In this document: positions 12,378 to 25,444 of the stretch, one piece after another
How positions within the stretch are numbered: position 1 is the stretch's first letter
How the letters are laid out: each line of letters opens with the position of its first letter
Assembly (NCBI GenBank): GCA_964432565.1
Contig: CAYSOA010000004.1
Location: 38,839-102,838 of the forward strand
Length of the DNA stretch: 64,000 nt
Source: an uncultured Bacteriovorax sp.
GTDB taxonomy: Bacteria > Bdellovibrionota > UBA1018
Direction of reading: 5' to 3'
Notes under the pieces: generated by a model
What the model was told of the DNA's origin: nothing
The model's database searches: none
The model's input: only the letters and a program-made list of their open reading frames with translations
Program-made: the position numbers and the translations under genes

Positions 12378-13274
12378 ATGAAAGAACCGAAATTGACCCT
12401 GCTTGGAACCGGCACCCTGTTGCCCATCGCCATGGTGGCCCTTCTGGCCGCCTGCGCCGAACAACCGCGAGCGCCAGCCCCGTTCGCCCAACCGGCCCTT
12501 CCCCAGAAGGTACGTTTCGCCGTAAAGGGAGCTGCTGCATCGGAGAATCTCGAAGTCTTCGCGCGGCACGGCGTCGAATTCACACTCGATGGCGCAATCG
12601 AGGTCGGTCCGGCACCCGACGGCCAGACCCATCGCAAGATCCTGCCGGAATCCCAGCGCGTCCGATTGCAGGAGGCATGGTCGGCATTGCAGAACGGAGG
12701 ACTGACGGCCAGTGAAACCTGTGCCACGGCTCCCGACGAGTCGTCCTGGGCATCCAACGCCTGGCGTCTCTCGATTCTTTTCGGCGATCGCGAGACGGCA
12801 TTGTTTCGCATCGATGGCGGTCAGATCTGCGGTCCGGCAAAAGAAGAAAGCCTGGTCGACTTTTCGAAGGTCCTGTTCGAACTCGCTTCGATTCATTACC
12901 CCCGTCGCTTTCCGAGCGCCTGTCTCGCTGGGGCGGATGAGCTGACCGGACGTTTTCAGGAACTGCTCGCATGCGAGAGCGACGCCGACTGCGTGAACGT
13001 GGACCTCGACTTCGCTGGAATTCCTGCTGGTGAAGTGCATCACATTCCGCTGGCGGTCTGTTCGGCACTCCCCCATCTGGGGGCAGCGAATGCTGCGGCA
13101 CTCCAAAAAGAGCGGCGCAGCCTGCTTTCCTTGAAGGCCGAGTCACAGAGAGCCTGTGTAGCCGAGGAGCTCGCTCCCGTGTGCTCAACCGAGCAGGACC
13201 CGGGCTTCCAGAACCACCGTTATCCCGCGCGATGTCAGGCGCAGAAGTGTGTTCCTGGCAGAACTCGGGAATAA
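12378..13274 (+). CDS. hypothetical lipoprotein
   Basis: The lipobox reads LLAAC and several conserved Cys residues follow. The opposite-strand ORF 12252..13106 has poor coding character, so this strand was preferred. Confidence 0.5.
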   Translation: MKEPKLTLLGTGTLLPIAMVALLAACAEQPRAPAPFAQPALPQKVRFAVKGAAASENLEVFARHGVEFTLDGAIEVGPAPDGQTHRKILPESQRVRLQEAWSALQNGGLTASETCATAPDESSWASNAWRLSILFGDRETALFRIDGGQICGPAKEESLVDFSKVLFELASIHYPRRFPSACLAGADELTGRFQELLACESDADCVNVDLDFAGIPAGEVHHIPLAVCSALPHLGAANAAALQKERRSLLSLKAESQRACVAEELAPVCSTEQDPGFQNHRYPARCQAQKCVPGRTRE

Positions 13275-13292
13275 TCCTATTCCCAGCAGTAG

Positions 13293-13308
13293 TGGCATCG
13301 GGGTTGCT
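13293..13308 (+). promoter_or_regulatory. sigma54 (-24/-12) promoter candidate
   Basis: The element TGGCAT-cgggg-TTGCT matches the TGGCAC-N5-TTGCW consensus, with GG and GC exactly 10 nt apart, and lies 45 nt upstream of the 13353 start. Confidence 0.6.
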
Positions 13309-13352
13309 TCACTGGCTGGATCGAAATCGTCGATCCTCAGAGGAGCAACCCC

Positions 13353-14117
13353 GTGCGTCATTCACCATCCCCTCTTTTGATCCGTCTCATGGCCTGGCTT
13401 CCGGTTCTGCTCAGCACACTGACTGCCTGCTCGATGCAGTCGAGGCAGTCCTACTCCCCCTCATCTCCGCAGACCGAATTGGTGCGAGCGCGAGACTGGG
13501 ACTTCATGACCATGGTCATCAAGGGCGCTCGCACGCAGCTCGAAAATAATGGCCACTTCAGAACAGTTCCCAATGCGTGCTACCGGCGCGAAAACGGTGC
13601 CCTTGAGCTCGAGCTCTGGAACCGAGTCGCCACTGCCGTGAATCGACTGCTCGAACAGCAGTGGCTGGACGAACCCGTTTGCGAGGCGCGTCCGGCCGGC
13701 GCTGCCGACATCTACCAGCCGGTGGTCCTACATCTGCTCAACCAGGAACAAATCGAAATTCTCACTCCCAATGGCTCACGCTTTTGTACTCGTTCGGTCG
13801 ATGTCGAAACCGCATCGACGCTTCTGGTGGCTCTTGCCGAAGTCGGTAAGCGAGCTTCACTGGAGGGCTGCCCCCCTCGAAGTACGTCGCTCTGGCAGGG
13901 CGTGCGAAGCCCCTTGGATGCGGATCACGACTGGCCGGGTGATGGACGCGACGACAATGATGACGATGATCATGGGGATGATCACGACCATAGCCGAGAC
14001 GATGAGCGAAACGATGAGCGAAACGATGACGAGGATCGCGACCAGGACTGGCGAGAGGGGCGCCCCTCTACTCCCCACCAGAAGGGCCAGCAAAAAGGAC
14101 ATCAAAGAGACTGGTAG
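13353..14117 (+). CDS. hypothetical lipoprotein with Asp/His/Glu-rich C-terminal tail
   Basis: The lipobox reads LTAC. The C-terminus is DDNDDDDHGDDHDHSRDDERNDERNDDEDRDQD, and the DNA there contains a 12-nt tandem repeat. Confidence 0.55.
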   Translation: MRHSPSPLLIRLMAWLPVLLSTLTACSMQSRQSYSPSSPQTELVRARDWDFMTMVIKGARTQLENNGHFRTVPNACYRRENGALELELWNRVATAVNRLLEQQWLDEPVCEARPAGAADIYQPVVLHLLNQEQIEILTPNGSRFCTRSVDVETASTLLVALAEVGKRASLEGCPPRSTSLWQGVRSPLDADHDWPGDGRDDNDDDDHGDDHDHSRDDERNDERNDDEDRDQDWREGRPSTPHQKGQQKGHQRDW

Positions 14118-14839
14118 GCCTGCAGCATCTTCTCCCGACAAATCGAGGCCAGAGTCGCCACATCGCTTCGTCCCAGCCCCCGGGTGGGCACGGGTTCGAG
14201 TGCCTTGACCGTGATGGTTCCAGAAGTCAATCGGTGCCTGCCGTGGTCGAGTACCGCGCTGATCGGCGAGGCCACCAGCGGAACCAGCGGCAGACCCGTT
14301 TCGATTGCCATATGGAAGGCCCCCTTTTTGAACGGCAGGAGTCCGACACCCGAGCGATTTCGAGTCCCCTCGGGAAAAATCATCACGCTTACGCCACGCT
14401 CTCGAATCTGACGACTCGCCGACCCAATCCCAGCGATGGCCTGATGATGCCGCTTACGATCGAGAAAGATGTTTCCGGCTGCGTAATAAAAGAGATTGAA
14501 GAACGGAATCCACAGTAGCTCGCGCTTGCCGATCACGATCGTGTTCGAGGGAAAGAGCGAGCCGAAAATCAGGATGTCGAGGTTGTCCTGATGGTTGCAG
14601 ATGTAGATGCAGGGCTGAAACGGCTGGAGCGACTCGGCGCCCTCGAGCCGAATTTGAATGCGAGTGATTCTCGAAAGTCCCCAGACCCCGAGCCGCGCCA
14701 CGATTCGATTGAAGTGCGGACTGCCAAAAAGAAACGGAATCAACAGAACACCCACGACCGACATGAAAAGAAGCCAGACCAGCACCAGCAGATAGCGGAC
14801 GAAAAAATCGACGGTTTGCATCTGGCTCCACCACACCAC
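14102..14839 (-). CDS. plsC: 1-acyl-sn-glycerol-3-phosphate acyltransferase
   Basis: The acyltransferase motifs are present: NHQDNLD for HX4D, and FPEGTR. Confidence 0.85.
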   Translation of the reverse strand: MVWWSQMQTVDFFVRYLLVLVWLLFMSVVGVLLIPFLFGSPHFNRIVARLGVWGLSRITRIQIRLEGAESLQPFQPCIYICNHQDNLDILIFGSLFPSNTIVIGKRELLWIPFFNLFYYAAGNIFLDRKRHHQAIAGIGSASRQIRERGVSVMIFPEGTRNRSGVGLLPFKKGAFHMAIETGLPLVPLVASPISAVLDHGRHRLTSGTITVKALEPVPTRGLGRSDVATLASICREKMLQAYQSL

Positions 14840-14862
14840 GGCACGGTGCCTGGCTCAAGCCC

Positions 14863-15816
14863 TCACAGATTTTCCCTCAGCCAGTCGAGGTCGATCTCGG
14901 GGTTCCGACTCCCCAGCTGATCCTCCGCCGCATCGGTTGGAATCGTCACGAAGTCGGGATGGTTCCAGCGACTCGATCCGGTCCAGCGTGAACTCAGGAC
15001 AATGTGCCCGTCATTGCCCGGAGCCGTTTCGAAATCATAGGTGTACTCGAGAATCGTCGCCAGACGCTGGATCGAATCGGCGTCGTCATCGTAGGGAAAA
15101 GTGGCCTCGACCCAGGCACGAACATGAAACAGCGAACGCCTCTGAAGATCGCGCGCCACTTCCATCGTGGCGGCGTGCACCGGCGTATTCCAGACCGGAG
15201 GTCGTGGATCGCGATCCATGATAATGGGCTTTTTCTTCTCTCCAAGCATCACTTCGAGAACCCGATGAAACTCGGCCGGAGCCGGATCATCAAAATCCGA
15301 TCTTCCATCCCCGTCGTTACGGCTGCCAAAGATCACACGAGATCCCTCTGGTAACCTCTCGTGGGCGTGAACCCAGAGAGCCTTCTGTTCCGCGATACTG
15401 AAAACTGCCGTGAGCCCCTCCCTCTCGACCCGGCGTTCGAGCCGGGGCTCGGGATGAAGCACTGAGGCCAGCGCCCAGGCGTCGCAACGTCCCTCCCAGG
15501 GCAGGAAGGGCCTCGACTCGCCCCGGATCCTTTGCTCTTCAAATTCCAAAGCACGCCGCCCCGTCAAAAGATCATGTTTACGAAGCGCCGAACGGGCATC
15601 GAGACGGGACAAGGGGTACCAGTAACCGGACCAGGGAATCGTTGCCGCACGAAGAGAGAAAATCCCCTCTCGAACGATCACGGGTCCGTGCAGTCGCGTG
15701 ACGTCTCCCCACTCGACGACCTCGCCGGGTGGAGCAACCAGGGACGAAGAGGAGGGAGGAGCTCCGCACGCGGCCACTCCGATCAGGAGCATTCCGATCC
15801 ACAGTGACTGGCGCAA
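14863..15816 (-). CDS. hypothetical lipoprotein (317 aa)
   Basis: The lipobox reads VAAC. The ORF sits inside an operon between a hypothetical gene and plsC, and its function is not recognised. Confidence 0.5.
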   Translation of the reverse strand: MRQSLWIGMLLIGVAACGAPPSSSSLVAPPGEVVEWGDVTRLHGPVIVREGIFSLRAATIPWSGYWYPLSRLDARSALRKHDLLTGRRALEFEEQRIRGESRPFLPWEGRCDAWALASVLHPEPRLERRVEREGLTAVFSIAEQKALWVHAHERLPEGSRVIFGSRNDGDGRSDFDDPAPAEFHRVLEVMLGEKKKPIIMDRDPRPPVWNTPVHAATMEVARDLQRRSLFHVRAWVEATFPYDDDADSIQRLATILEYTYDFETAPGNDGHIVLSSRWTGSSRWNHPDFVTIPTDAAEDQLGSRNPEIDLDWLRENL

Positions 15817-15848
15817 GAGCCCCTCCCTTCTGATTGCCTGCGATGCGA

Positions 15849-16457
15849 CTATTCGGCCTGAACCGGAATTCCGGCGCAGGTATCCACCTCTCGACCGGTT
15901 GCGCGAACCTGAACGGCAGACTCGTTCTTGCCACGCGACTCATCGATTCGAGCGCGACAAAGCTCGGAGAATCCGATCTTCATGTCGAGAATCTCGGCGC
16001 AGCTGACCGGCACTTCAATCGAGAAGTCTTCAATCACTTCCTGGTACCGCTGACAGGCCCCCGAGCTTTGCACGGCTTCGACCTCGGATGAGGTTTCGGC
16101 CACCTTGAACTTGTCCGAGACCACGGTGATGCCGACACGGCGCTCGGACTTGAGGGGAATCCGGCCCGGAACGCCCGCGATCCATGTCTGCTCCTGGTTC
16201 CGGCAGACGACCCGAATATCCTGGGGAGCGCGTTGCACCTCGCTCTTTGAAGGATCGGCACACTGCTCGCGAAAGCGTTCGAAACTCACTTCCGTGGCAC
16301 TCTCCGCAGGAGAAACAGGCCCAGCGTCGCCTCCACCTTCGCCATCGCTGGCCATGGCGTAAAGCGACGTCATGGCCACAAGGCTGAAAATGGCGAGCGC
16401 CCAGTATCCGTTTCGTTCACGCAACTTTCCCTGACTGATTCCACTCTTTCTGTTCAT
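15849..16457 (-). CDS. hypothetical membrane-anchored protein
   Basis: The start was taken at MNRKSG, followed by a TM segment (YWALAIFSLVAMTSLYA). Confidence 0.45.
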   Translation of the reverse strand: MNRKSGISQGKLRERNGYWALAIFSLVAMTSLYAMASDGEGGGDAGPVSPAESATEVSFERFREQCADPSKSEVQRAPQDIRVVCRNQEQTWIAGVPGRIPLKSERRVGITVVSDKFKVAETSSEVEAVQSSGACQRYQEVIEDFSIEVPVSCAEILDMKIGFSELCRARIDESRGKNESAVQVRATGREVDTCAGIPVQAE

Positions 16458-16546
16458 GCTACCCCCTCGGTAATCAATTGAACCGGCACCAATTCCGGTC
16501 GGCTGCCGGAATTGCAACGCAGGTGCCACCGAGCGGCCTTGAGGCT

Positions 16547-17992
16547 TCAGTCCAAACCGTAGCGCCGACGCTTTCTCCAAAGCGTGCTGAGATTGATTCC
16601 CAGGATCGTGGCGGCCTCTTCGAGCGTCTGCGTCGTACCCAGAACGCTCAGGATATGGCGTCGTTCGAGTTCCTCGAGGCTCACTTCGGCGGCAGATAGC
16701 TGGTTCGGCGCACCGTCGATCATTGCAGATTGCGACACAAAGGAAGCCTGTTCGCCTGCTGAAGCGTGCAGTACGCCCGATGCTGCCGGCACGGCATCCG
16801 CCTTTGTCGGAGCTGACGAGAAGCCTTCGACGACGCGATCGGGCAGATCATCCAGCGTCACCTGGTCCGTCGAGCAAAGGATGGCGGCACGCTCGAGGGC
16901 GTTCTTGAGCTCGCGAATGTTTCCCGGCCACGGATAGGCCCGGATTGCTGCAGCTGCTTCGGCACTGAAGGGGCGTGCGGGCCGATTTGCGGCGACAAAG
17001 GACTTCTGCAGAAGTCCCTCGGCCAGGGCGGGAATGTCCTCGCTGCGGTTGCGAAGCGAGGGCATGTGCAGATCGATCACATTCAGCCGAAAGTACAAAT
17101 CCTCGCGAAAACGCCCCTGGCGAACCTCATGTTCGAGGTCCTTGTTCGTAGCCGCAATGATGCGAACGTCCACGCGGATGGTCTTGGTATCGCCGACCCG
17201 CTCGAACTCGCGTTCCTGCAGAAATCGAAGCAGCTTGGTCTGCAGCGACGGCGAGATCTCGCCGATCTCATCAAGAAATACGGTACCGCTCTCGGCGAGC
17301 TGCAGCCGTCCCACCTTGTCCTTCACGGCACCTGTAAACGATCCTCGGACGTGTCCGAAGAGCTCGGACTCGAGCAGATTTTCTGAAAGCGTCGCACAGT
17401 TGACCACGGCAAAAGGACCTTTCGAACGCTGGCTGGCATCGTGCGTAATCTTCGCAAGAAGCGTCTTTCCCGTACCGCTTTCACCGGTGATCAGAATGGT
17501 CGAGTCGGTTGCCGCCACCTTCCTCGCCATGTCGAGCACCTTCTGCATTCGAGCATTTTTCGTCGTAATACTCGACGGGTCAGAAAGGACTTCGACGGTG
17601 TCCCGAAGCTTCAGGTTCTCGTCGCTGAGCCGCCTGAACTCCTCGATTCGTGAAACCAGGTGCTCGAGCTGCTCGGGAGTGAAGGGTTTGACCAGATAAT
17701 CATAGGCTCCCCCCTTCATGGCACTGATGGCCGTATCAATGGTGGCATAGGCCGTCATGAGCACCGGCGTTACTCCGGGAAAATATTCCCGGGTCTTTCC
17801 CAGAAGATCGAGGCCGCTCATTCCATCCATCCTGAGATCGGTGATCAGGATATCGGGACTCGAACGACGCATCAGCGAAAGAGCCATCTCTCCACTGTCG
17901 GCCACCTGAACCTCGTGGCCCGCAGCGGTCAGTGCCGCCTCCATGGTGCTGCAGATTCCCTGTTCGTCATCAACCACCAGCAACTTCGACAT
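16547..17992 (-). CDS. sigma54-dependent response regulator (NtrC family)
   Basis: The REC domain reads LLVVDDE, followed by GESGTGKT, GSFTGA and a C-terminal HTH. The start was taken at MSKLL. Confidence 0.85.
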   Translation of the reverse strand: MSKLLVVDDEQGICSTMEAALTAAGHEVQVADSGEMALSLMRRSSPDILITDLRMDGMSGLDLLGKTREYFPGVTPVLMTAYATIDTAISAMKGGAYDYLVKPFTPEQLEHLVSRIEEFRRLSDENLKLRDTVEVLSDPSSITTKNARMQKVLDMARKVAATDSTILITGESGTGKTLLAKITHDASQRSKGPFAVVNCATLSENLLESELFGHVRGSFTGAVKDKVGRLQLAESGTVFLDEIGEISPSLQTKLLRFLQEREFERVGDTKTIRVDVRIIAATNKDLEHEVRQGRFREDLYFRLNVIDLHMPSLRNRSEDIPALAEGLLQKSFVAANRPARPFSAEAAAAIRAYPWPGNIRELKNALERAAILCSTDQVTLDDLPDRVVEGFSSAPTKADAVPAASGVLHASAGEQASFVSQSAMIDGAPNQLSAAEVSLEELERRHILSVLGTTQTLEEAATILGINLSTLWRKRRRYGLD

Positions 17993-19805
17993 AATTCCGG
18001 CCCCCTCCTCTGTTATTGAATTCATGCCCGGACTGCGGAACCACCAACACGAGTTCCGTTCCGGTCGATTGATCCGTCCTCATGGCCAGTGAGCCTCCAT
18101 GCGCAATGGCAACCTCGCGCGCAATCGCAAGACTCATGCCGGTTGCGTTGCTTCGTGCAACGCGAAGACTGTAATGTGCAAATCCACGTTCGAAGAGGCG
18201 CTCTTGAATCTCGCCGGGAAATTGGAGGGCAGCTCCACAGATCCGAATTTCGAAATCGCTGCCGCTCGATCCGCCGGATCGCACCATGCCGACCTGAAGC
18301 CGGGAGCCGCGACTCGAGTGACGAACCGCCTCGGTCAGCATGCTCGACAGCACCCAGGCCAGACGTGCCGGGTCGACTCGGACCGTGGAGTCCCCCAGCG
18401 TCTCGGAGAAGTGGAGCTCGAGTCGAATCTGCCGCTGCTCCGCTTCACTTCGAGCCGCCCTCACCGCCTGCGCCAGAAGCCGCCTCAGATCGGAGGCTCG
18501 CAGATTGAGGCTCTCGGAATTCAGATCGAAGCGGCTGGTCACCAGAAGCTCGTCGATCAGTTCACGCAGGCGATCCACGTCACGAACACTGGTGTCGACC
18601 AAACGCCGCTGCACGTCGGTCAGCGAACCAGCGGGCGAGCGCTGCAGCAGGCGTGTGGCCATCAATAGACTCGTGACCGGGGTTTTCACTTCGTGCGACA
18701 ACAAGGCCAGGAAGTGGGCCTTGGCCTCCTCGCCCTGGCGAATCCACGAGATGTCCTGGGCGACGACAATCGTATCTGCGGCATTCCGGCCATCCCCGGC
18801 CCGCGAAGATTCCGAAGACCGCGTCACCAGGTAGGAGGCGATCTGGACGCCATCCTCCGATCGAACAACGAGTTCAACCGGTGTCCAACGCGAGGCGGCC
18901 GTCAAAATCGCCGAGGCAGCACGCTGTCGGTTGTCCTTGTCGCTGAATCCGGAATCAGCAGCCTTCTCAAGATCGACCGGATGGAGACCGCGATGAAACT
19001 CCTCTTCAAGAATTCGGGCTCCAGTGGCGTTTCGCCACACGACCGTGCTGCCGCGAAGCACGAAGATGCCGTCTCGATTGATCCTCGAAAGGACCTGGTT
19101 TCGAGCCTTCTGCTCGAGAAGATCCCCCTTTGACTTCTTCTGATAGGCTCGAAGCTTTTCGATCAATGCGACGGTTCCCCGCTCGAACTGCAGAATCTCC
19201 TCGGGGGCCGATTCAAAGCCGTGTCGGCGGCGATCTGCCTCCTTCGAAAAAAGCGCCGGCAGGTCCTGCGACAGATCGAGCGTACCGAGGTACCGGGCCA
19301 GATAACTTGCCGGGCGGACCACGCTATTGAAGTGGCGCCGAAACAGAAACAGCACCACGAGAAAAATCACTCCCCAAAAAAGCAGTCCTCGCCCCAGAAT
19401 GCCCCGAAGGCGAATCTCGCGATCGTCCGAAAGACGTACGAGCTCGAGCGACTGGTGGAACTGCCAGCCCTCGGCAATCGCCTTCAGCAGTCTGATATCA
19501 GGGGCCGGCTGACTGAACTGGGCCATCAGGGCACTGACGTAGGTGTTTCCGATTACGTCACCGCGAGAGTCCGGATCAACCGAGCGCACTAGAGCGAGCG
19601 CCCGCCCGAACTCGTGAGCCACGATATGCATTCGAACTCGACTCGAGACATCCAGCAGCTCCTGGCGCAGCAGGTGAGTCTTGCGGCTGGCTTGAATCTC
19701 GTCGGCCACCTCGAGGCCGACCCAGGCCATTGTCGCACCGATCATGACCAGAAGCAGCAGGAGCCCCGACTGATAGATTTCAAAAAGCGAGCGGGACCTG
19801 CTCAC
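17970..19805 (-). CDS. sensor histidine kinase (2 TM, HAMP/PAS, HisKA, HATPase_c)
   Basis: The GTG start overlaps the upstream gene's stop (GTGA). The HisKA box reads LSHEVKTPV, the ATPase domain contains GTGMSLAIAREV, and its 3' end overlaps the response regulator by 23 nt. Confidence 0.8.
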   Translation of the reverse strand: MSRSRSLFEIYQSGLLLLLVMIGATMAWVGLEVADEIQASRKTHLLRQELLDVSSRVRMHIVAHEFGRALALVRSVDPDSRGDVIGNTYVSALMAQFSQPAPDIRLLKAIAEGWQFHQSLELVRLSDDREIRLRGILGRGLLFWGVIFLVVLFLFRRHFNSVVRPASYLARYLGTLDLSQDLPALFSKEADRRRHGFESAPEEILQFERGTVALIEKLRAYQKKSKGDLLEQKARNQVLSRINRDGIFVLRGSTVVWRNATGARILEEEFHRGLHPVDLEKAADSGFSDKDNRQRAASAILTAASRWTPVELVVRSEDGVQIASYLVTRSSESSRAGDGRNAADTIVVAQDISWIRQGEEAKAHFLALLSHEVKTPVTSLLMATRLLQRSPAGSLTDVQRRLVDTSVRDVDRLRELIDELLVTSRFDLNSESLNLRASDLRRLLAQAVRAARSEAEQRQIRLELHFSETLGDSTVRVDPARLAWVLSSMLTEAVRHSSRGSRLQVGMVRSGGSSGSDFEIRICGAALQFPGEIQERLFERGFAHYSLRVARSNATGMSLAIAREVAIAHGGSLAMRTDQSTGTELVLVVPQSGHEFNNRGGGRNYVEVAGG

Positions 19806-20365
19806 GTGTTCGGCTCCCGCCTGAGAACCTGCATCGCTCGCACAGCCCAGACACTTCGGCTTCCCATCTGCGAGATCGAATCGAGCACCGCCGGGCGCCG
19901 AAATACGAGATAAAGTGCCTTGCCCGAGAGGAAGACCAGCTCGGAACGGCGGTTTCGGCAGGGGCCTTCGTTCAGCGCCTGAAGGGCGAAATTCAGTGCC
20001 CGCAAGAGATGCTCGCGGCCCTCGCGAACCCTTCCCCCATGAACCAGCCCCTGCCCGACCGAACTGTGCCAGCGGGCGAGCTGGGTCGCGTCGCGCACCT
20101 CGGGGGCGATCAACCCGATGGTGACCGCTCCGGCCTTCGGAGCCAAACCCTCGGGCAGACCCGTGGGTAGCAGGGCAGCAGCCTCGAGTTCCTTCACCTC
20201 TTGCCGCAGCAGCGCCTCACTGGGCGAAATCGAGCTGCGGCCCCAGCTCAGATCGAGAGACCAGCTCGCCCCCCAGAGCACTCCTCCCGCGATGAGGACA
20301 ATCGCCACGCCCAGCTTGAAGGGTGCGAAAACGGGGCGATTCAGAATGGAGAGCCGTCGAGTCAT
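19802..20365 (-). CDS. hypothetical single-pass membrane protein, first gene of the kinase/regulator operon
   Basis: The start was taken at MTRRLS, just downstream of the sigma54 promoter candidate. A TM helix follows (VAIVLIAGGVLWGASW). Confidence 0.5.
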   Translation of the reverse strand: MTRRLSILNRPVFAPFKLGVAIVLIAGGVLWGASWSLDLSWGRSSISPSEALLRQEVKELEAAALLPTGLPEGLAPKAGAVTIGLIAPEVRDATQLARWHSSVGQGLVHGGRVREGREHLLRALNFALQALNEGPCRNRRSELVFLSGKALYLVFRRPAVLDSISQMGSRSVWAVRAMQVLRREPNT

Positions 20366-20398
20366 GATGCGGGGTGTCCTATAGCAGCGCACTGCATT

Positions 20399-20414
20399 GG
20401 CAAAGCGCGTGCCG
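20399..20414 (-). promoter_or_regulatory. sigma54 (-24/-12) promoter candidate for the membrane protein / HK / sigma54-RR operon
   Basis: On the minus strand the element reads cGGCAC-gcgct-TTGCc, with GG-N10-GC spacing. It lies about 35 nt upstream of the 20365 start codon. Confidence 0.55.
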
Positions 20415-20501
20415 CAGCCCAAGCCCCGGTTTTCAAGCACTTCAAACTGTCATGACATTTGCCTGAAGATTGCGTTTTGCACGAAGCCGACGAAAAGTCG
20501 G

Positions 20502-20876
20502 TTATCCTGCACTGCGAACCCGTGCAGATTCGCGTTCGCGAATGGCCTGGCAGCGCGCACAAAGCCGGGCCTCGGGTACGACCAGGAGCCGCTTTTCGGG
20601 AATCTCCTCATCGCAATCTTCACAGACGCCAAAGCCCACTGATGCGATTTTTGCGAGCGCGCGATCGATCGCCTGAATTTCGCGAAGCTCCTGCTCCTGT
20701 AACGAGGCGGTGCGACCGAGATGCTCGAGGCTCTGGGCAATATCCACCATCTCCGCCTGGGAATCGACGCGATCCATTTCGCTTTCGGTCAGGATGGAAG
20801 GGATCAGCCCTTCTCCCAACCTCGCCCGGCGCGCCTTCAGGATGTCGTGAATCTTGTCTCGAGTGCCTCGGTCCAT
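20502..20876 (-). CDS. DksA/TraR-family C4 zinc-finger transcription factor
   Basis: The C-terminus has C-x2-C-x17-C-x2-C (CEDCDEEIPEKRLLVVPEARLCARCQ) after a coiled-coil region. The start was taken at MDRGTRD, giving 124 aa. Confidence 0.75.
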   Translation of the reverse strand: MDRGTRDKIHDILKARRARLGEGLIPSILTESEMDRVDSQAEMVDIAQSLEHLGRTASLQEQELREIQAIDRALAKIASVGFGVCEDCDEEIPEKRLLVVPEARLCARCQAIRERESARVRSAG

Positions 20877-20919
20877 GAAGGGCTGCGATCTGCAAAAACC
20901 CTGCACGACGCGAGTCGGA

Positions 20920-21861
20920 CTAATTTTGGCAGCGTGCCGAATGGGCTGCCAGATAACGGCTCGAAATCGAGCGACCCATTGCACCGACCAGCCCAAGGCT
21001 CGCCTCACAAAGCCGCCCGAGATCGACTCCGCTGCGAATCTTCATGCCGTCCAGCATGTAAACGAGATCTTCGGTGGCCAGGTTTCCGGTCGCAGCGGGC
21101 GCGAACGGACAACCGCCCAGTCCTCCGGCCGAAGAGTCGATGCTCGTTACCCCGTATTCCATCGCCCGCAGCGTGTTGGCGAGCGCCGTTCCACGGGTGT
21201 CGTGAAAGTGCACGGCCACTTTCGCAACCGGGTTCTTCGAGAGGAGTTTCGGCACGATCGCGTCGACGCCCCGCGGGGTCGCTACCCCGATGGTGTCTCC
21301 CAGGGATACTTGCTGGGCTCCGAGATCCAAAAGCCTCTGAGCCGCATCGATGGAGCGCCTGGCCGCCACTTCGCCTTCAAACGGGCAGCCAAAGACAGTC
21401 GACAGATAAGCGCGAGTCTTCAGCTTCAGGCGCCGAGCCTCTCGAAGCACTTCACGTATCTCGGCAAGTGAGTCGGCGATCGACATGCCGATGTTGCGGC
21501 GATTGAACGTCTCGCTCGCGGCAGTAAAGACTCCGATGGCGCGTGCGCCAGCCGCCAAGGCCCGCTCCAGACCCCGTCGATTCGGAACCAGCGCCCAGTA
21601 GGTCGGTCCCTGCAGCGAACGATCGGCCAGGATGGCCTCGAAGACCTGGGCCGAGTCGGCCATCTGCGGGACGCGATCGGGGCGCACAAAGGCCCCTGCT
21701 TCGATCTGCGAAAGTCCGGCGTCCTTGAGTCCACGAATGTAGCGAAGCTTCCATTCGAGTGGGATCGTTCGGCTCTCGTTTTGAAGTCCGTCTCGAGGGC
21801 CCACGTCGAAGATCGTCACCTGACGCGGAAAGCCCGCCACCTTCTTCGTGCTAGCCGGCAT
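20920..21861 (-). CDS. hydroxymethylglutaryl-CoA lyase
   Basis: It is a TIM-barrel HMGL-like protein (FDVGPRDGLQNE ... HFHDTRG ... GGLGGCPFA). Confidence 0.85.
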   Translation of the reverse strand: MPASTKKVAGFPRQVTIFDVGPRDGLQNESRTIPLEWKLRYIRGLKDAGLSQIEAGAFVRPDRVPQMADSAQVFEAILADRSLQGPTYWALVPNRRGLERALAAGARAIGVFTAASETFNRRNIGMSIADSLAEIREVLREARRLKLKTRAYLSTVFGCPFEGEVAARRSIDAAQRLLDLGAQQVSLGDTIGVATPRGVDAIVPKLLSKNPVAKVAVHFHDTRGTALANTLRAMEYGVTSIDSSAGGLGGCPFAPAATGNLATEDLVYMLDGMKIRSGVDLGRLCEASLGLVGAMGRSISSRYLAAHSARCQN

Positions 21862-22378
21862 TCTGGCCTCCGCTCGGGGCAGCCTCGAAGTCGAGCATCA
21901 GGTCGCCAGGGGAAAGCTGCTGTCCTTCGATGACCCGAATCTTTTTCACCGTGCCGGCACAAGGCGCCTGAATCGCGAACTCCATCTTCATCGCTTCGAC
22001 CAGCACGAGCTTCTGATTCTCTGAAACCTCCGCCCCTTCCGCCACGAGCAGTTTGCGGACCTTGCCCGGAAACTGCGCTGTGAAATCGGCGGCACTGGCT
22101 CCCGATGCAGCCGCCCCGCGCGAGGCATCGAGGCGCGACCAGTCCCCAAAAAGTGGTCCGTGAAAACCCGACGGCTCGAGCCATTGCGCCGAGAACTTTC
22201 CCCTGCCCTGAATGGACACCCCGCGGACCCGTTCAACCGTCCCATCGAGCCGAGTGCGCTCGGCAATCACCCACCCGCCAGGGCGAAGCGATACGGTCCA
22301 CGATTGAGCGTCGCGGGCCTCGGCTGACTGGTCATCGGCGGTGAATTTTTTTCCCGAAACCTTCCACTGGTGTTTCAT
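21851..22378 (-). CDS. biotin carboxyl carrier (BT-BCCP) portion of an acyl-CoA carboxylase alpha subunit
   Basis: It carries a biotinyl-lysine motif (EAMKME) at its C-terminus and has a 4-nt ATGA overlap with the upstream biotin carboxylase ORF. Confidence 0.8.
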   Translation of the reverse strand: MKHQWKVSGKKFTADDQSAEARDAQSWTVSLRPGGWVIAERTRLDGTVERVRGVSIQGRGKFSAQWLEPSGFHGPLFGDWSRLDASRGAAASGASAADFTAQFPGKVRKLLVAEGAEVSENQKLVLVEAMKMEFAIQAPCAGTVKKIRVIEGQQLSPGDLMLDFEAAPSGGQNAG

Positions 22379-23847
22379 GACAGCCTCCAGGGTGACGGTG
22401 CACTCGTCCTCTGGTCCTCGGACGCGCCTGCCAGAGAAAAGGATCGCACCAGTCGTGTCGCCGTCGCCAGGTCGACAGCCGAGATTACGGGCTGAAACTC
22501 CGCGAAGGCCTCCCCGAGGTAGCCGGTGTGCATCCTGCCCTCGCGCACCTGAGCATCGTTGGCGATCGCGAGCAGGTAACGTTGATTCGTGCCCATTCCC
22601 GAAACCACTGTTTCTTCGAGGGCAAAACGCATGCGCTGCACCGCGATTTCACGCGTGGGGGCATGCACGATGATTTTGGCCAGCAACGAGTCGAACTGCG
22701 TGCCGATCGTCTGGCCCTGCTCAATTCCGGCTTCGATGCGAATGCCGGTGCCTGTGGGCCAGCGCAGGAACTCCACTTTTCCGGGTGTCGGCGCAAAGCC
22801 CATGGCCGGGTCTTCGGCGTAGAGGCGCACTTCGATCGCGTGTCCCCGCGGCTCACCCACTTTCGGTAGCTGAAACTCCTCGGGGTTCAGCGCCAACTGC
22901 AACTGCAGGTGGACGAGATCCTGTCCGGTGACCTGCTCCGTCACGGGATGTTCGACTTGAAGGCGCGTATTCATCTCGAGAAAGTAAAAGCCACCCTGAT
23001 CGTCGACCAGAAATTCGAGTGTGCCGGCACTTCGGTATTTCACTTCCGAGACCAGCCTCAGCGAAGCTTCAAAAAGACCCTGGCGTGTCTGCTGCGACAA
23101 GTGCGGCGCGGGAGCTTCCTCCCAAACTTTCTGGTGACGGCGCTGCAGGGAGCACTCACGCTCGTACAGATGGACGCCCCCACCCTTGCCGTCTCCGAAA
23201 ACCTGCACTTCGATGTGTCGCGGATTTTCGATCAGCCGTTCAAGAAACAGCGTGCCATCACCGAACGCGGCAACGGCTTCGGCCGAGGCACTTTCGGCGG
23301 CATCCTTCAATTCGGACGCCTCGTTGACCCGACGCATGCCCTTGCCTCCGCCTCCGGCTGACGCCTTGAGCAGAAGCGGATAACCCACCTTGGCGGCGGC
23401 GGAGGCAAGATCTTCGCCCGCCCTGACCTTCGCCCAAGGCAAGGTCGGTACCTTCGCCTTCTCGGCAAGTTCCTTGGCGGCAATCTTTTCGCCCAGCGCT
23501 CGCATGGTTTCGGCTCGCGGTCCGGCGAACGCGATTCCTGCCGCTTCGCAGGCGTCGGCAAATTCGGGGCGTTCACTCAAAAATCCGTAACCGGGATGAA
23601 TGACCGTCGCGCCGCTTTTTTTCGCGGCGGCGATCACCGACTCGATATCGAGGTAACGGGACACTTCCTGCACCTCGTCGGCATAAGTGAGGTGGCGGGC
23701 CTCTTCATCACCGGGGGCACAAATGGCGACGGTACGAAAGCCCAGCTCGCGGCAGGCCTGAAAAACCCGGCACGCAATCTCCGAGCGATTCGCAACAAGG
23801 ACCTTGAGGGGTTTCGAAGCCATCACGGCACTCATGACGAAATCCAC
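22375..23847 (-). CDS. biotin carboxylase subunit (methylcrotonyl-/acyl-CoA carboxylase alpha, BC domain)
   Basis: It has the ATP-grasp BC motifs GGGGKGMR and ...EMNTRLQVEHPVTE. The exact start is uncertain, with MSAVMA and MASKPLK as candidates. Confidence 0.85.
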   Translation of the reverse strand: MDFVMSAVMASKPLKVLVANRSEIACRVFQACRELGFRTVAICAPGDEEARHLTYADEVQEVSRYLDIESVIAAAKKSGATVIHPGYGFLSERPEFADACEAAGIAFAGPRAETMRALGEKIAAKELAEKAKVPTLPWAKVRAGEDLASAAAKVGYPLLLKASAGGGGKGMRRVNEASELKDAAESASAEAVAAFGDGTLFLERLIENPRHIEVQVFGDGKGGGVHLYERECSLQRRHQKVWEEAPAPHLSQQTRQGLFEASLRLVSEVKYRSAGTLEFLVDDQGGFYFLEMNTRLQVEHPVTEQVTGQDLVHLQLQLALNPEEFQLPKVGEPRGHAIEVRLYAEDPAMGFAPTPGKVEFLRWPTGTGIRIEAGIEQGQTIGTQFDSLLAKIIVHAPTREIAVQRMRFALEETVVSGMGTNQRYLLAIANDAQVREGRMHTGYLGEAFAEFQPVISAVDLATATRLVRSFSLAGASEDQRTSAPSPWRLS

Positions 23848-24635
23848 CCCGGTTTGCGCTTTTCGAGAAACGCCTTGAGGCCTTCCTGCCCTTCCGGAGT
23901 CACGCGCAACTCCGCCAAGGTCTTCGAAACGTACTCGAGGCAGTCTCCCATTTTCTCGCGTCGCTCAGGCCAGGTCAGGTCGAGCACGAGTTGCTTGGCC
24001 ACCGACATCGCCTGCGGCCCGCACTGAAGCATGTTACCCAAAATGCGCTCGCGAGACGCTTGAAGTGCCGCAGTATCCGTGACGACTTCGTGGATGAGAC
24101 CGATCTCGTGGGCGCGCTTCGCGCCAAACCTCTCGGCACTGATGAAGAGCGCCCGAGAATGCGTGGCGCCGATCTTGGCCGTCACGAACGGACCGATGCA
24201 GGCCGGAACAATCCCGAGGCGCACTTCGCTGAGGCTGAACTGCGTATCCTGCGTGGCGACGACCATATCGCAGACACTCGTCAGACCGACTCCGCCGCCG
24301 ATGGCCGCCCCGTGGATAAAACCGATCAGCGGCTTCGGGCACTCATTCATGAGGGCGAACATTCTCGAGAGCGTGCGCGTCTCGACGAGGTTCTGCTCGA
24401 CGTTGAGCTCGACCGAACGCTTCATCCAGTTCAAGTCTCCCCCCGCAGAGAAGACAGGACCTGCACCCTGCAACGTGACGATTTTTACGTCCGCCTTCTG
24501 CACCTCGACCGAGAAAACCTCGGTGAGCTCATCAATCATCGCTTCATTGAAGGCGTTTCGAATCTCGGGACGATTCAGGGTGACATCCAGGACGCCCGGA
24601 TGCCGGATAGAGCGTTCGACCTTGAGGGTTTTCAT
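23832..24635 (-). CDS. enoyl-CoA hydratase/isomerase family (methylglutaconyl-CoA hydratase-like)
   Basis: The crotonase fold motifs are present: FSAGGDL and GAAIGGG. The start was taken at MKTLKV. Confidence 0.8.
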   Translation of the reverse strand: MKTLKVERSIRHPGVLDVTLNRPEIRNAFNEAMIDELTEVFSVEVQKADVKIVTLQGAGPVFSAGGDLNWMKRSVELNVEQNLVETRTLSRMFALMNECPKPLIGFIHGAAIGGGVGLTSVCDMVVATQDTQFSLSEVRLGIVPACIGPFVTAKIGATHSRALFISAERFGAKRAHEIGLIHEVVTDTAALQASRERILGNMLQCGPQAMSVAKQLVLDLTWPERREKMGDCLEYVSKTLAELRVTPEGQEGLKAFLEKRKPGWISS

Positions 24636-24658
24636 GCCCCCGAAACTAACCCAAGCGC

Positions 24659-25444
24659 TTAAAGGCGGCAATCCTGCTTCAATCGATCGGCGAGTCCACG
24701 CGCAGCCGACACTTCGAGACGGGTGATTTCGAGCTGGGTCAGGGCATCGGCAGCAAGGCCCTCAACGTAGCGGCGATCATCGTGTCCAAAGGTGTACCAG
24801 CGACTTTGAATTTCGCCGGTCTCCGAGTCGCGTAGCGTCTCCAAAAAGCGCTCAAAGTCTCTTCCAGCGTGACGACGAACGTCGGTAAACTTCGATGCCA
24901 CCAGAACCGGAAGCTGCGCGGCATCGTCCATCAGATCTTGAAACTCCGCTTCGCTCTTCACTTCCCCGATGAGGTCTTCCAGGCTCAGCTTCAGGTGATT
25001 CACGCCCAGCTCGCGCCGATCCAAAGTTCGATAAAGGTAGCGAACGCCGTGATAGGCCGTCGGCACTGCCACGGCTGAGGTCAATAGTCCGGCCGTCGTC
25101 ACCTTGCCGAGTGGTAGCGTGTAGGCCGCCACTCCCGGAATCAACGACGCCGCCACCACGCCGACGGCCGCACAGGCACTCGAGGTGTAGGCCACGAAGC
25201 GGGCCTTGCCGAGAAGCTTCTTGAAGTCTTGAACCGCGTGCTCCTGGATCTGAGCAGAGGCTTCACGCCGTTCGGCGAGCTTCGTCAGTTTGTGAATCAC
25301 GTCATGTTGCTCGATCTGTGAGCAGTACTCGGCCAGTCTCGGTGAAAGTGCCTGAGGCGACGCCTCGGCAGCAGCGAAGGCCGAAGTCAGAGAAAGGCCG
25401 AACGAGGCCGGAACCACCAAAAAGGACGCGAGCAGCTTCTTCAT
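24659..25444 (-). CDS. hypothetical secreted/membrane protein
   Basis: A signal peptide (MKKLLASFLVVPASFGLSLTSAFAAAEA) and an internal hydrophobic hairpin are present. No motif was recognised. Confidence 0.45.
   Translation of the reverse strand: MKKLLASFLVVPASFGLSLTSAFAAAEASPQALSPRLAEYCSQIEQHDVIHKLTKLAERREASAQIQEHAVQDFKKLLGKARFVAYTSSACAAVGVVAASLIPGVAAYTLPLGKVTTAGLLTSAVAVPTAYHGVRYLYRTLDRRELGVNHLKLSLEDLIGEVKSEAEFQDLMDDAAQLPVLVASKFTDVRRHAGRDFERFLETLRDSETGEIQSRWYTFGHDDRRYVEGLAADALTQLEITRLEVSAARGLADRLKQDCRL

What the first reader, a model, noticed from the sequence alone, without database searches (positions are those of the whole stretch)
19802..20414. Sigma54 promoter in front of its own HK / sigma54-activator operon (autoregulatory loop) with an upstream accessory membrane protein
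The element cGGCAC-N5-TTGCc sits about 35 nt upstream of the first gene of a six-gene minus-strand run. That run is the single-pass membrane protein, histidine kinase, NtrC-family regulator, a hypothetical gene, a lipoprotein and plsC, read in that order on the minus strand.

A sigma54-dependent activator transcribed from a sigma54 promoter implies positive feedback. The accessory membrane protein ahead of the kinase may act as a co-sensor. Coupling plsC, a phospholipid-synthesis gene, into this operon suggests a link to membrane lipid homeostasis.
Basis: partly seen in the sequence, partly recalled or inferred. Interest (0 to 1): 0.5.

Follow-up and report, generated by a model that had tools for sequence, protein, structure and literature searches.

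The report
Three-promoter sigma-54 two-component gene cluster
The flagged sigma-54 promoter-like site is real and partly conserved in front of a sensor-kinase/activator gene pair, but the genes downstream have their own, far better sigma-54 promoter, so this looks like an ordinary self-amplifying two-component switch with adjacent target operons, not one six-gene operon.

Summary
The motif is there: cGGCAC-N5-TTGCc at 20399-20414 (-), 34 nt before the ATG of a 187-aa membrane protein. That gene overlaps the histidine kinase gene by 4 nt, and the kinase gene overlaps the NtrC-family activator gene.

On its own the match is weak: 3 relaxed matches in the window against 0.6 expected. However, a sense-oriented GGYAY-N5-TTGC sits in the same dksA-to-kinase gap in 5 of 11 related Bdellovibrionota/Oligoflexia lineages, against 0.055 expected. 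A conserved palindrome, CGTGCA-N3-TGCACG, lies 62-106 nt upstream of it.

- P2, a perfect TGGCAC-N5-TTGCA at 16513-16528 (-), in the 90-nt gap between the activator gene and the next gene. It is present in all 13 orthologous contigs that cover this junction.
- P3, TGGCAT-N5-TTGCT at 13293-13308 (+), in front of a convergent lipoprotein gene.

The likely units are therefore:
- P1: accessory protein, kinase, activator. Feedback is plausible but unproven.
- P2: Cys-rich secreted protein, transglutaminase-like lipoprotein, PlsC.
- P3: a lipoprotein.

This architecture is known from ZraPSR, glnALG and Nla28S/Nla28. It is a new member of a known kind and of modest interest.

The parts
20399..20414 (-). 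P1: weak sigma-54 -24/-12 element CGGCACGCGCTTTGCC (the finding). The transcription start is predicted near 20388.
   Evidence: Equivalent sites occur in L083/84, L005, L006 and L008. Enrichment is quantified.
20469..20483 (-). Candidate enhancer (UAS) for P1: CGTGCAaaaCGCAAT. It is a degenerate copy of the clade-wide palindrome CGTGCA-N3-TGCACG. Its centre is about 62 nt upstream of the P1 16-mer, or about -88 from the predicted start.
   Evidence: the only matches with 0-1 mismatch in about 140 kb of orthologous loci all lie in the dksA-to-kinase gap (L006, L083, L087 twice, L089, L004).
20372..20404 (-). Conserved leader block TTTGCCAATGCAGTGCGCTGCTATAGG. It overlaps the -12 element and contains the palindrome GCAGTGCGCTGC and a Shine-Dalgarno-like TAGGA.
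   Evidence: the block is conserved in L083, L087 and L089, including the two loci where the -24 GG is lost.
19802..20365 (-). Accessory protein gene, 187 aa. It has an N-terminal TM helix and a conserved C-terminal domain of about 90 aa. Its stop overlaps the kinase GTG start (GTGA).
   Evidence: No Pfam or NCBIfam hit. Only its own cluster was found by word-based search. Homologous to 235- and 237-aa ORFs at the same position in L083 and L087, with weak similarity to L005.
17970..19805 (-). Sensor histidine kinase, 611 aa. Two hydrophobic segments flank a loop of about 115 aa, followed by HisKA and HATPase_c domains.
16547..17992 (-). NtrC-family sigma-54 activator, 481 aa (REC, AAA+ with GSFTGA loop, HTH_8). 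Its start overlaps the kinase stop.
16722..16733 (-). GCAATCTGCAAT, a possible enhancer for P2 inside the activator coding region, about 200 nt upstream of P2. It is one of only two GCAA-N3-GCAAT copies in the window; the other lies upstream of P1.
   Evidence: The pattern was derived after seeing the sites, so this is suggestive only.
16513..16528 (-). P2: perfect sigma-54 promoter consensus TGGCACCTGCGTTGCA, 18 nt after the activator stop and 55 nt before the ATG of the 202-aa gene. The transcription start is predicted near 16503.
   Evidence: the full 16-mer occurs twice against 0.07 expected. The 16-mer is identical in L083, L087, L088 and L089. It is present in all 13 orthologous contigs with this junction.
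15849..16457 (-). First P2 gene: 202-aa secreted or membrane-anchored protein with six invariant cysteines. The family is restricted to this clade.
   Evidence: AlphaFold2 mean pLDDT 66, with no PDB fold match.
14863..15816 (-). Second P2 gene: 317-aa predicted lipoprotein with a transglutaminase-elicitor-like domain.
   Evidence: (PF16683, E 6.4e-13). Syntenic.
14102..14839 (-). Third P2 gene: PlsC-type 1-acylglycerol-3-phosphate acyltransferase, 24 nt after the lipoprotein gene.
   Evidence: TIGR00530 score 125.8, above the 102.95 cutoff. The linkage is variable across the clade.
13293..13308 (+). P3: sigma-54 promoter consensus TGGCATCGGGGTTGCT, 44 nt before the GTG of the convergent lipoprotein gene.
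   Evidence: Conserved in L083 and L088. Related sites occur before the homologous gene in L007, L012 and L018.
13353..14117 (+). P3 gene: 254-aa predicted lipoprotein, convergent with plsC. It has an Asp/His-rich tail found only in this genome.

Best explanation
The window carries a sigma-54 regulatory module that is conserved in a clade of uncultured Bdellovibrionota/Oligoflexia.

**Sensor side.** A membrane histidine kinase phosphorylates an NtrC-family activator. In some lineages the kinase is preceded by a translationally coupled single-TM accessory protein.

**Strong promoters.** The activated regulator, an AAA+ oligomer, remodels sigma-54 RNA polymerase at two promoters next to its own gene:
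- P2 drives the Cys-rich secreted protein, the transglutaminase-like lipoprotein and PlsC.
- P3 probably drives a further lipoprotein, though P3 may instead belong to the neighbouring second activator.

**The flagged site.** P1 is a weaker, lineage-variable sigma-54 promoter in front of the accessory-kinase-activator genes. A conserved palindrome at about -90 to -130 provides the enhancer. Induction would therefore also raise the amount of sensor and regulator, giving positive feedback. Basal expression would come from read-through out of dksA.

**Shown versus inferred.**
- Shown: the motifs, their positions, their conservation, the domain content and the gene overlaps.
- Inferred: that sigma-54 uses these sites, that this activator rather than the neighbouring second one binds the palindrome, the sign of the feedback, and the envelope-related role of the targets.
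For: **P2 and P3**
- They are the only two full TGGCAY-N5-TTGCW matches in 64 kb, against 0.07 expected and 0 of 100 shuffles.
- Both are intergenic and correctly oriented, 44-55 nt before start codons.
- P2 is present in every orthologous contig covering the junction, and its spacer is identical in five lineages.
- P3 is conserved in L083 and L088, with related sites in L007, L012 and L018.

**P1**
- A correctly spaced -24/-12 site is present in 5 of 11 lineages at the same position, against 0.055 expected.
- The lineages with the site belong to two distant subgroups.

**Enhancer candidate**
- All matches to CGTGCA-N3-TGCACG with 0-1 mismatch lie in the dksA-to-kinase gap, 62-106 nt upstream of the P1 position.
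- A matrix built from these sites scores in the top 10% of background in 7 of 12 P2 upstream windows.
- GCAA-N3-GCAAT occurs in the window only upstream of P1 and of P2.

**Activator and operon structure**
- No sigma-70 consensus was found.
- I read terminator-like hairpins by eye between the activator gene and P2 in L003, L005 and L018.

**Precedents for sigma-54 self-activation of kinase-activator operons**
- nla28S-nla28 (PMC9765219).
- zraSR together with zraP, and glnALG (PMC4987338).
Against: **P1 is a poor match.** It has C instead of T at -26 and C after the GC.

**P1 is missing or broken in 6 of 11 lineages.**
- In the close relative L087 the GG is lost and 1 nt is deleted.
- In L089 the spacing is GG-N11-GC.
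- In both of these loci the palindrome and the leader block remain conserved. Those elements may therefore serve another purpose, such as repression or a sigma-70 promoter not detected here.

**The palindrome is not clearly shared with the strong promoters.**
- It is not found at high stringency upstream of P2 or P3.
- P3 windows show no enrichment, 0 of 8.

**Weak points in the statistics.**
- The GCAA-N3-GCAAT pattern was defined after seeing the sites.
- CGTGCAAAA is not enriched in the window as a whole.

**Other gaps.**
- A second kinase/activator pair lies nearby.
- rpoN is not in the window, so its presence in the genome is unverified.
- There are no expression data.
Confidence: 0.55

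Rival explanations
1. One six-gene operon is transcribed from the flagged sigma-54 promoter, and plsC is part of the autoregulatory transcript.
For: All six genes are on one strand with short gaps. In the window subclade no terminator separates the activator gene from the next gene. Some read-through is therefore possible.
Against: A perfect and universally conserved sigma-54 promoter sits between genes 3 and 4. I read terminator-like hairpins by eye before it in L003, L005 and L018. Genes 4-6 are absent from L007 and L012, where the kinase-activator pair persists. plsC changes position between loci.
Confidence: 0.1
2. The flagged site is a non-functional or only occasionally functional look-alike. 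The accessory-kinase-activator genes are expressed by read-through from dksA or from an unrecognised sigma-70-type promoter. The conserved palindrome is an operator for a repressor, or for negative autoregulation by the activator.
For: - The site is a weak consensus match, and relaxed matches also occur inside coding regions.
- The -24 GG is lost in L087 and displaced in L089, while the palindrome and leader stay conserved.
- L002 and L085 have only 60-135 nt between dksA and the kinase gene, with no sigma-54 site.
- No convincing terminator follows dksA.
- From my own knowledge: NtrC represses the sigma-70 glnL promoter in E. coli.
Against: Five of 11 lineages carry a correctly spaced site in the same place, against 0.055 expected, and they fall in two distant subgroups. 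No sigma-70 consensus was detected. The distance from palindrome to site is typical of an enhancer.
Confidence: 0.25
3. P1 is a genuine sigma-54 promoter but is fired by a different activator, for example the second NtrC-family protein at 6572-8032. That would make it a regulatory cascade rather than self-activation.
For: A second kinase/activator pair with a GAFTGA loop lies 6.5 kb away and is syntenic in L083 and L085. The P1 palindrome is not clearly shared with P2 or P3.
Against: The palindrome and the activator gene travel together in all loci examined. The helix-turn-helix region of the activator is almost invariant across the clade. Weaker palindrome-like sites do occur upstream of P2.
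Confidence: 0.1

Closest known systems
ZraPSR envelope-stress system of E. coli and Salmonella
   Same: - A membrane kinase and an NtrC-family activator.
- The activator drives sigma-54 promoters both for its own kinase-activator operon and for an adjacent gene encoding an envelope protein.
- A small accessory envelope protein is associated with the kinase (PMC4987338).
   Different: - There is no orthology: the ZraR model scores 357 against a cutoff of 760, and the ZraS model 63.5 against 479.
- Here the accessory gene is the first gene of the kinase operon and encodes a TM-anchored protein with no detectable relation to ZraP.
- Promoters are arranged in tandem and convergently, not divergently.
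- The targets differ: a Cys-rich protein, a transglutaminase-like lipoprotein and PlsC.
- The signal is unknown.
Nla28S/Nla28 of Myxococcus xanthus
   Same: A membrane-bound kinase and a response-regulator-type activator form one operon. That operon is preceded by a sigma-54 promoter, and the activator regulates itself through upstream repeats (PMC9765219).
   Different: - The Nla28 half-site CT(C/G)CG(C/G)AG is unrelated to CGTGCA-N3-TGCACG.
- The Nla28 promoters are mostly intragenic and distant.
- There is no accessory gene and no adjacent conserved target operon of this kind.
glnA-ntrB-ntrC (glnALG) with glnAp2
   Same: A sigma-54 promoter upstream of the kinase and activator genes gives positive autoregulation. 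Palindromic enhancer sites lie about 100-140 bp upstream. The NtrC site is TGCACC(A/T)4TGGTGCA (PMC4987338), which also contains GCAC/GTGC half-sites.
   Different: - The kinase here is membrane-bound with a periplasmic loop, not a cytoplasmic PII-controlled NtrB.
- There is no glnA.
- The NtrC equivalog model scores below its cutoff: 410.5 against 558.6.
- The half-site orientation and spacing differ.
QseE-QseG-QseF (GlrK/GlrR) type systems with an accessory envelope protein (from my own knowledge)
   Same: A sigma-54 activator, its kinase and an extra envelope protein that assists sensing are all encoded in one operon.
   Different: - QseG is an outer-membrane lipoprotein encoded between the kinase and regulator genes.
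- Here the accessory protein is TM-anchored, is encoded first, and is present in only some lineages.
- The GlrR model scores 337.8 against a cutoff of 763.

Membership tests
Sigma-54-dependent promoter (P1, the finding) | GG and GC dinucleotides separated by exactly 10 nt, within a TGGCAC-N5-TTGCW-like context | tested here: met
   The site is CGGCAC-GCGCT-TTGCC, with 2 mismatches to the 16-mer and the spacing exact.
Sigma-54-dependent promoter (P1, the finding) | Non-coding position, sense orientation and a short distance to a start codon | tested here: met
   The site lies in a 136-nt gap after dksA, 34 nt before the ATG at 20365.
Sigma-54-dependent promoter (P1, the finding) | Conservation at the orthologous position | tested here: inconclusive
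   Present in 5 of 11 lineages, against 0.055 expected. Lost in L087, L089, L002, L085, L004 and L007.
Sigma-54-dependent promoter (P1, the finding) | Upstream activator-binding sites, typically at -80 to -150 | tested here: inconclusive
   A conserved palindrome, CGTGCA-N3-TGCACG, is centred 62-106 nt upstream of the 16-mer. The protein that binds it is unknown. The window's copy is degenerate, with 3 mismatches.
Sigma-54-dependent promoter (P1, the finding) | rpoN present in the genome, and a transcription start that depends on rpoN and on an activator | not testable with these tools
   No RpoN-box protein is encoded in the window. The rest of the genome and expression data are not available.
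Sigma-54-dependent promoter (P2 and P3) | Full consensus, intergenic position, correct orientation and conservation | tested here: met
NtrC-family response-regulator enhancer-binding protein | Receiver domain, sigma-54 interaction AAA+ domain with a GAFTGA-type loop, and a Fis-type HTH | tested here: met
   Pfam hits: Response_reg 1.9e-25, Sigma54_activat 2.6e-70, HTH_8 2.9e-07. The GSFTGA loop occurs in 50 of 87 related activators. Structural relatives are NtrC1, NtrC4, LuxO and ZraR.
Named orthologues (AtoC, NtrC, ZraR, GlrR, LuxO) | Score above the NCBIfam equivalog cutoff | tested here: not met
   All are below cutoff. Examples: AtoC 425 against 714, NtrC 410.5 against 558.6, ZraR 357 against 760.
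Single six-gene operon | No internal promoter or terminator, and genes inherited together | tested here: not met
   - There is an internal perfect sigma-54 promoter.
- I read terminator-like hairpins by eye in L003, L005 and L018.
- Genes 4-5 are absent from L007 and L012.
- plsC is relocated or absent in L007, L006 and L018.
Positive autoregulatory loop | The activator binds upstream of, and activates, the promoter of its own operon | not testable with these tools
   Only indirect support exists: shared motif hints between the P1 and P2 upstream regions.

The most novel reading that the evidence does not exclude
The third promoter, P3, is built into the 5' arm of a strong hairpin (13291-13360) whose 3' arm covers the Shine-Dalgarno sequence and GTG start of the lipoprotein gene.

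- Transcripts reading through from the upstream gene would fold this hairpin and be translationally silent. Predicted energy is -41.8 kcal/mol (z -6.2), and the structure is conserved in L083 and L088 with two compensatory pairs.
- Transcripts started by sigma-54 about 10 nt inside the hairpin would lack the 5' arm and be translatable.

Promoter choice would then gate translation, so the protein would be made only when the activator fires.

A second, separate reading also remains open. The whole module could be a clade-specific envelope-remodelling response that couples a transglutaminase-like lipoprotein and its Cys-rich partner to a dedicated PlsC.
Probability: 0.25. Interest if true: 0.55.

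Novelty: new member of a known kind. Interest (0 to 1): 0.3.

Why it matters
If correct, the window gives a compact, experimentally tractable sigma-54 circuit for a poorly known group of uncultured Bdellovibrionota/Oligoflexia. It has one sensor pair, a candidate enhancer sequence and three promoters. The regulon consists entirely of predicted envelope proteins plus a phospholipid acyltransferase.

It also corrects the operon model. plsC is tied to the target operon, not to the feedback loop.

Self-activation of kinase-activator operons from sigma-54 promoters is textbook behaviour, so the regulatory logic itself would not surprise a specialist. The unexplained parts are:
- the signal that is sensed
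- the role of the fast-evolving accessory protein
- the function of the Cys-rich protein and transglutaminase-like lipoprotein pair
- the hairpin at P3

Tried and rejected
- **Homologue search for the accessory protein.** A word-based search returned only its own cluster. This first suggested an orphan or spurious ORF. I rejected that after pairwise and multiple alignment with ORFs at the same position in L083, L087 and L005.
- **Dyad enumeration.** Enumerating dyads over 17 upstream regions gave GTG-N11-ACT as the top hit. Inspection showed it came from conserved coding sequence and unrelated sites, so I rejected it.
- **k-mer enrichment.** CGTGCAAAA was enriched in 4 of 9 intergenic regions but was not enriched in the window as a whole. 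I keep it only as a hint.
- **Inverted-repeat scan.** A generic scan of the three upstream regions found nothing useful.
- **Promoter and terminator scan.** The sigma-70 and terminator consensus scan of 13000-21000 found no promoter, and terminators were at chance level.
- **Alignment of the dksA-to-kinase gaps.** MAFFT alignment of distant loci was uninformative. The 95%-identical contig L082 was too close to be informative.
- **Structure of the 202-aa protein.** The AlphaFold2 model had pLDDT 66 and Foldseek against the PDB gave no match with E <= 0.001. No function could be assigned.
- **Metagenome scan.** A scan with the 202-aa family added only two short new contigs.
- **Named orthologues.** Assignment of the activator or kinase to AtoSC, NtrBC, ZraSR or GlrKR was rejected because scores were below cutoff.
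- **rpoN.** Searching the window for an RpoN box found none.
Full report
**1. The observation**

On the minus strand the window reads ...gggctgCGGCACgcgctTTGCCaatgcagtgcgctgctataggacaccccgcatcATG. The core GGCAC-N5-TTGC is at 20400-20413. It lies in the 136-nt gap between the stop of a DksA-like gene (20502) and the ATG at 20365.

- A 187-aa protein with one N-terminal hydrophobic helix (19802-20365).
- A 611-aa HisKA/HATPase_c kinase (17970-19805). Its GTG start overlaps the preceding stop as GTGA.
- A 481-aa REC/Sigma54_activat/HTH_8 activator (16547-17992). Its start overlaps the kinase stop.
- A 202-aa hypothetical protein (15849-16457).
- A 317-aa predicted lipoprotein with a TGase_elicitor domain (14863-15816).
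- A PlsC-type acyltransferase (14102-14839).

Statistically the motif alone is weak. GGCAC-N5-TTGC occurs 3 times in the window against 0.62 expected. GGCAY-N5-TTGC occurs 5 times against 1.19 expected. Two of those five lie inside coding sequence.

**2.

One of the other matches is a perfect 16-mer, TGGCACCTGCGTTGCA, at 16513-16528 (-). It sits in the 90-nt gap between the activator stop and the ATG of the 202-aa gene.

A second full-consensus site, TGGCATCGGGGTTGCT, is at 13293-13308 (+). It lies 44 nt before the GTG of a 254-aa predicted lipoprotein gene that converges on plsC.

These are the only two TGGCAY-N5-TTGCW matches in 64 kb. The expected number is 0.07, and no shuffle out of 100 reached two. 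I call the three sites P1 (the finding), P2 and P3.

**3. Related loci**

The activator has 70-78% identical orthologues in MAGs labelled Oligoflexia, Bacteriovoracaceae or Bdellovibrionales. The next tier, from Binataceae and others, is at most 50% identical and not syntenic.

Further relatives came from homologues of the 202-aa protein. That protein forms a family of only seven clusters in the 5.8-billion-protein index.

The conserved gene order is: HMG-CoA-lyase-like, DksA-like, [accessory], kinase, activator, 202-aa protein, transglutaminase-like lipoprotein, [PlsC], then convergently the 254-aa-type lipoprotein and a ~300-aa predicted lipoprotein.

Variations on that order:
- L007 and L012 lack the 202-aa and lipoprotein genes. 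There the activator gene faces the convergent lipoprotein gene directly.
- plsC follows the lipoprotein gene in the window, L002, L003, L083-L088.
- plsC is absent from that position in L006 and L018.
- In L007 plsC lies between the lyase gene and dksA.

**4. P2 and P3 are conserved**

P2 is present in every contig that covers the junction between the activator gene and the 202-aa gene. That is 13 contigs besides the window. In the window, L083, L087, L088 and L089 the 16-mer is identical, spacer included.

In the window's subclade P2 starts 12-30 nt after the activator stop, with no terminator in between. In L003, L005 and L018 the spacer is 150-330 nt. There I read a GC-rich hairpin followed by a T-run by eye before P2; no terminator scan was run on those loci.

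P3 is conserved in L083 and L088. Related -24/-12 sites precede the homologous gene in L007, L012 and L018.

The genes after the activator gene therefore form their own sigma-54 units. The six-gene operon model does not hold, although read-through in the window subclade cannot be excluded.

**5. P1 across lineages**

A sense-strand, correctly spaced site lies 24-58 nt before the first gene after dksA in five lineages:

| Lineage | Site |
|---|---|
| Window | cGGCAC-N5-TTGCc |
| L083/L084 | gGGCAC-N5-TTGCc |
| L005 | cGGTAT-N5-TTGCg |
| L006 | cGGCAT-N5-TTGCg |
| L008 | cGGCAT-N5-TTGCg |

From the frequency of GGYAY-N5-TTGC in 1.9 Mb of strand sequence, 0.055 of the 11 gaps would be expected to carry one. 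Allowing for shared ancestry, these five lineages probably represent two or three independent events. Even so, this is well beyond chance.

In the other six lineages P1 is absent or broken:
- In the close relative L087 the GG is gone and one base is deleted. The rest of the leader (TTTGCCAnnGCAGTGCnCTGCTATAGG) is nevertheless conserved.
- In L089 the spacing is GG-N11-GC.
- L002, L085, L004 and L007 have no site.

P1 is thus a plausible but dispensable and variable sigma-54 promoter. It always departs more from the consensus than P2 does.

**6. Candidate enhancer**

Just after the dksA stop there is a palindrome, CGTGCA-N3-TGCACG.
- It is perfect in L006 and L083.
- It has one mismatch in L087 (two tandem copies), L089 and L004.
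- It is weaker in L007, L008, L005 and the window. The window copy is CGTGCAaaaCGCAAT at 20469-20483.

No other match with 0-1 mismatch exists in about 140 kb of orthologous loci.

Its centre is 62-106 nt upstream of the P1 16-mer, which is about -88 to -132 from the predicted start. This is the classical position for an enhancer.

The stem sequence is conserved rather than covarying, and the three central bases vary freely. That pattern fits a protein-binding site better than an RNA hairpin; this is my inference.

Whether the adjacent activator binds it is not shown. The hints are these:
- A matrix built from these sites scores in the top 10% of background windows for 7 of 12 P2 upstream regions, but for 0 of 8 P3 regions.
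- CGTGCAAAA occurs upstream of P1 (window, L083) and of P2 (L003, L006).
- GCAA-N3-GCAAT occurs in the window only at 20469-20480 and 16722-16733, upstream of P1 and P2 respectively. This pattern was defined after seeing the sites.

The palindrome is retained where the P1 -24 element is lost. It may therefore have a role independent of sigma-54, such as repression of read-through or of a sigma-70 promoter.

**7. The accessory protein**

The word-based search returned only the protein's own cluster. Even so, the protein aligns with ORFs of 235 and 237 aa at the same position in L083 and L087. The pairwise E-value is 2e-18, with 40% identity over the last 89 residues. Similarity to a 356-aa ORF in L005 is weak.

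All of these have an N-terminal hydrophobic helix. The window, L083 and L087 genes overlap the kinase gene by 4 nt.

L002, L085, L089, L006, L007 and L008 have no such gene.

A co-sensor role is reasonable by analogy, but it is pure inference.

**8. The activator and its neighbours**

The activator scores below every NCBIfam equivalog cutoff, so it is not an orthologue of a named regulator. Its GSFTGA loop is shared by orthologues and by 50 of 87 related activators.

A second kinase/activator pair lies at 6572-9990 (-). That pair could serve any of the three promoters. rpoN is not in the window.

**9. The targets**

All P2 and P3 products apart from PlsC are predicted envelope proteins:
- The 202-aa protein has a hydrophobic N-terminus and six invariant cysteines. 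It has no fold match; the model's pLDDT is 66.
- The 317-aa and 254-aa proteins have lipobox-like N-termini.

An envelope-related response is therefore the most economical reading, but the function is not established.

**10. Comparison with known systems**

Sigma-54 self-activation of kinase-activator operons is established for three systems:
- nla28S-nla28 (PMC9765219)
- zraSR together with the adjacent zraP (PMC4987338)
- glnALG (PMC4987338)

The present module works like these but belongs to none of them.

**11. Verdict**

- The novelty class is a new member of a known kind.
- My probability estimates are: P2 is a real promoter, about 0.9; P1 is used by sigma-54 in this genome, about 0.6; the adjacent activator drives P1, about 0.45.

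Noticed in passing
window 13291-13360 (+); L083 8296-8370 (-); L088 3712-3765 (-): The spacer and -12 element of P3 (CGGGGTTGCT) are complementary to the Shine-Dalgarno and start region of the lipoprotein gene (GGAGCAACCCCGTG). Read-through RNA folds at -41.8 kcal/mol (z -6.2). L083 and L088 keep the pairing through two compensatory changes. RNA starting at the predicted P3 start lacks the 5' arm. L085 keeps a hairpin over the start region but has no -24/-12 site.
   Followed up: partly
window 6572-9990 (-): A second histidine kinase (665 aa) and NtrC-family activator (486 aa, GAFTGA loop) lie 6.5 kb from the first pair. A kinase at the corresponding position is also seen in L083 and L085. Its targets were not examined.
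   Followed up: no
window 16470-16510 (-): The leader downstream of P2 contains a CCGG...CCGG stem-loop (ATTCCGG-N7-CCGGAAT or CCGGCA...TGCCGG). Its position is retained in L083, L085, L087, L088 and L089, with different sequences.
   Followed up: no
window 20372-20404 (-): The block TTTGCCAATGCAGTGCGCTGCTATAGG between P1 and the start codon is conserved in L083, L087 and L089, even where the -24 GG is lost. It includes the palindrome GCAGTGCGCTGC, which in L087 is a perfect 12-mer, GCAGTGCACTGC.
   Followed up: partly
window 20448-20457 (-): A perfect 10-bp palindrome, TGTCATGACA, lies between the candidate enhancer and P1. Partial TGTCA motifs occur at a similar place in L083 and L006. It could be a site for a bending protein or a second regulator.
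   Followed up: no
window 13920-14117 (+): The 254-aa lipoprotein ends in an Asp/His-rich tail (DDNDDDDHGDDHDHSRDDERNDERNDDEDRD...). The tail overlaps the plsC 3' end on the other strand. Homologues are 170-183 aa long and lack it.
   Followed up: no
window 15849-16457 (-) and 14863-15816 (-): A Cys-rich protein and a transglutaminase-elicitor-like lipoprotein form a clade-restricted gene pair that is always adjacent. The 202-aa family has only 7 clusters in 5.8 billion proteins, six invariant Cys and no PDB fold match.
   Followed up: partly
window 20502-24671 (-): The DksA-like gene follows genes for an enoyl-CoA hydratase, a biotin carboxylase, a biotinyl-domain protein and an HMG-CoA-lyase-like enzyme. 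Together these look like leucine or isovalerate catabolism genes. The lyase-like gene immediately precedes dksA in every related contig that extends that far.
   Followed up: no
L034 7493-7508 (+): In an unrelated Aminicenantes contig, a full TGGCAY-N5-TTGCW site also lies about 220 nt downstream of the homologous activator gene. This suggests that placing a target promoter right after the activator gene is common.
   Followed up: no
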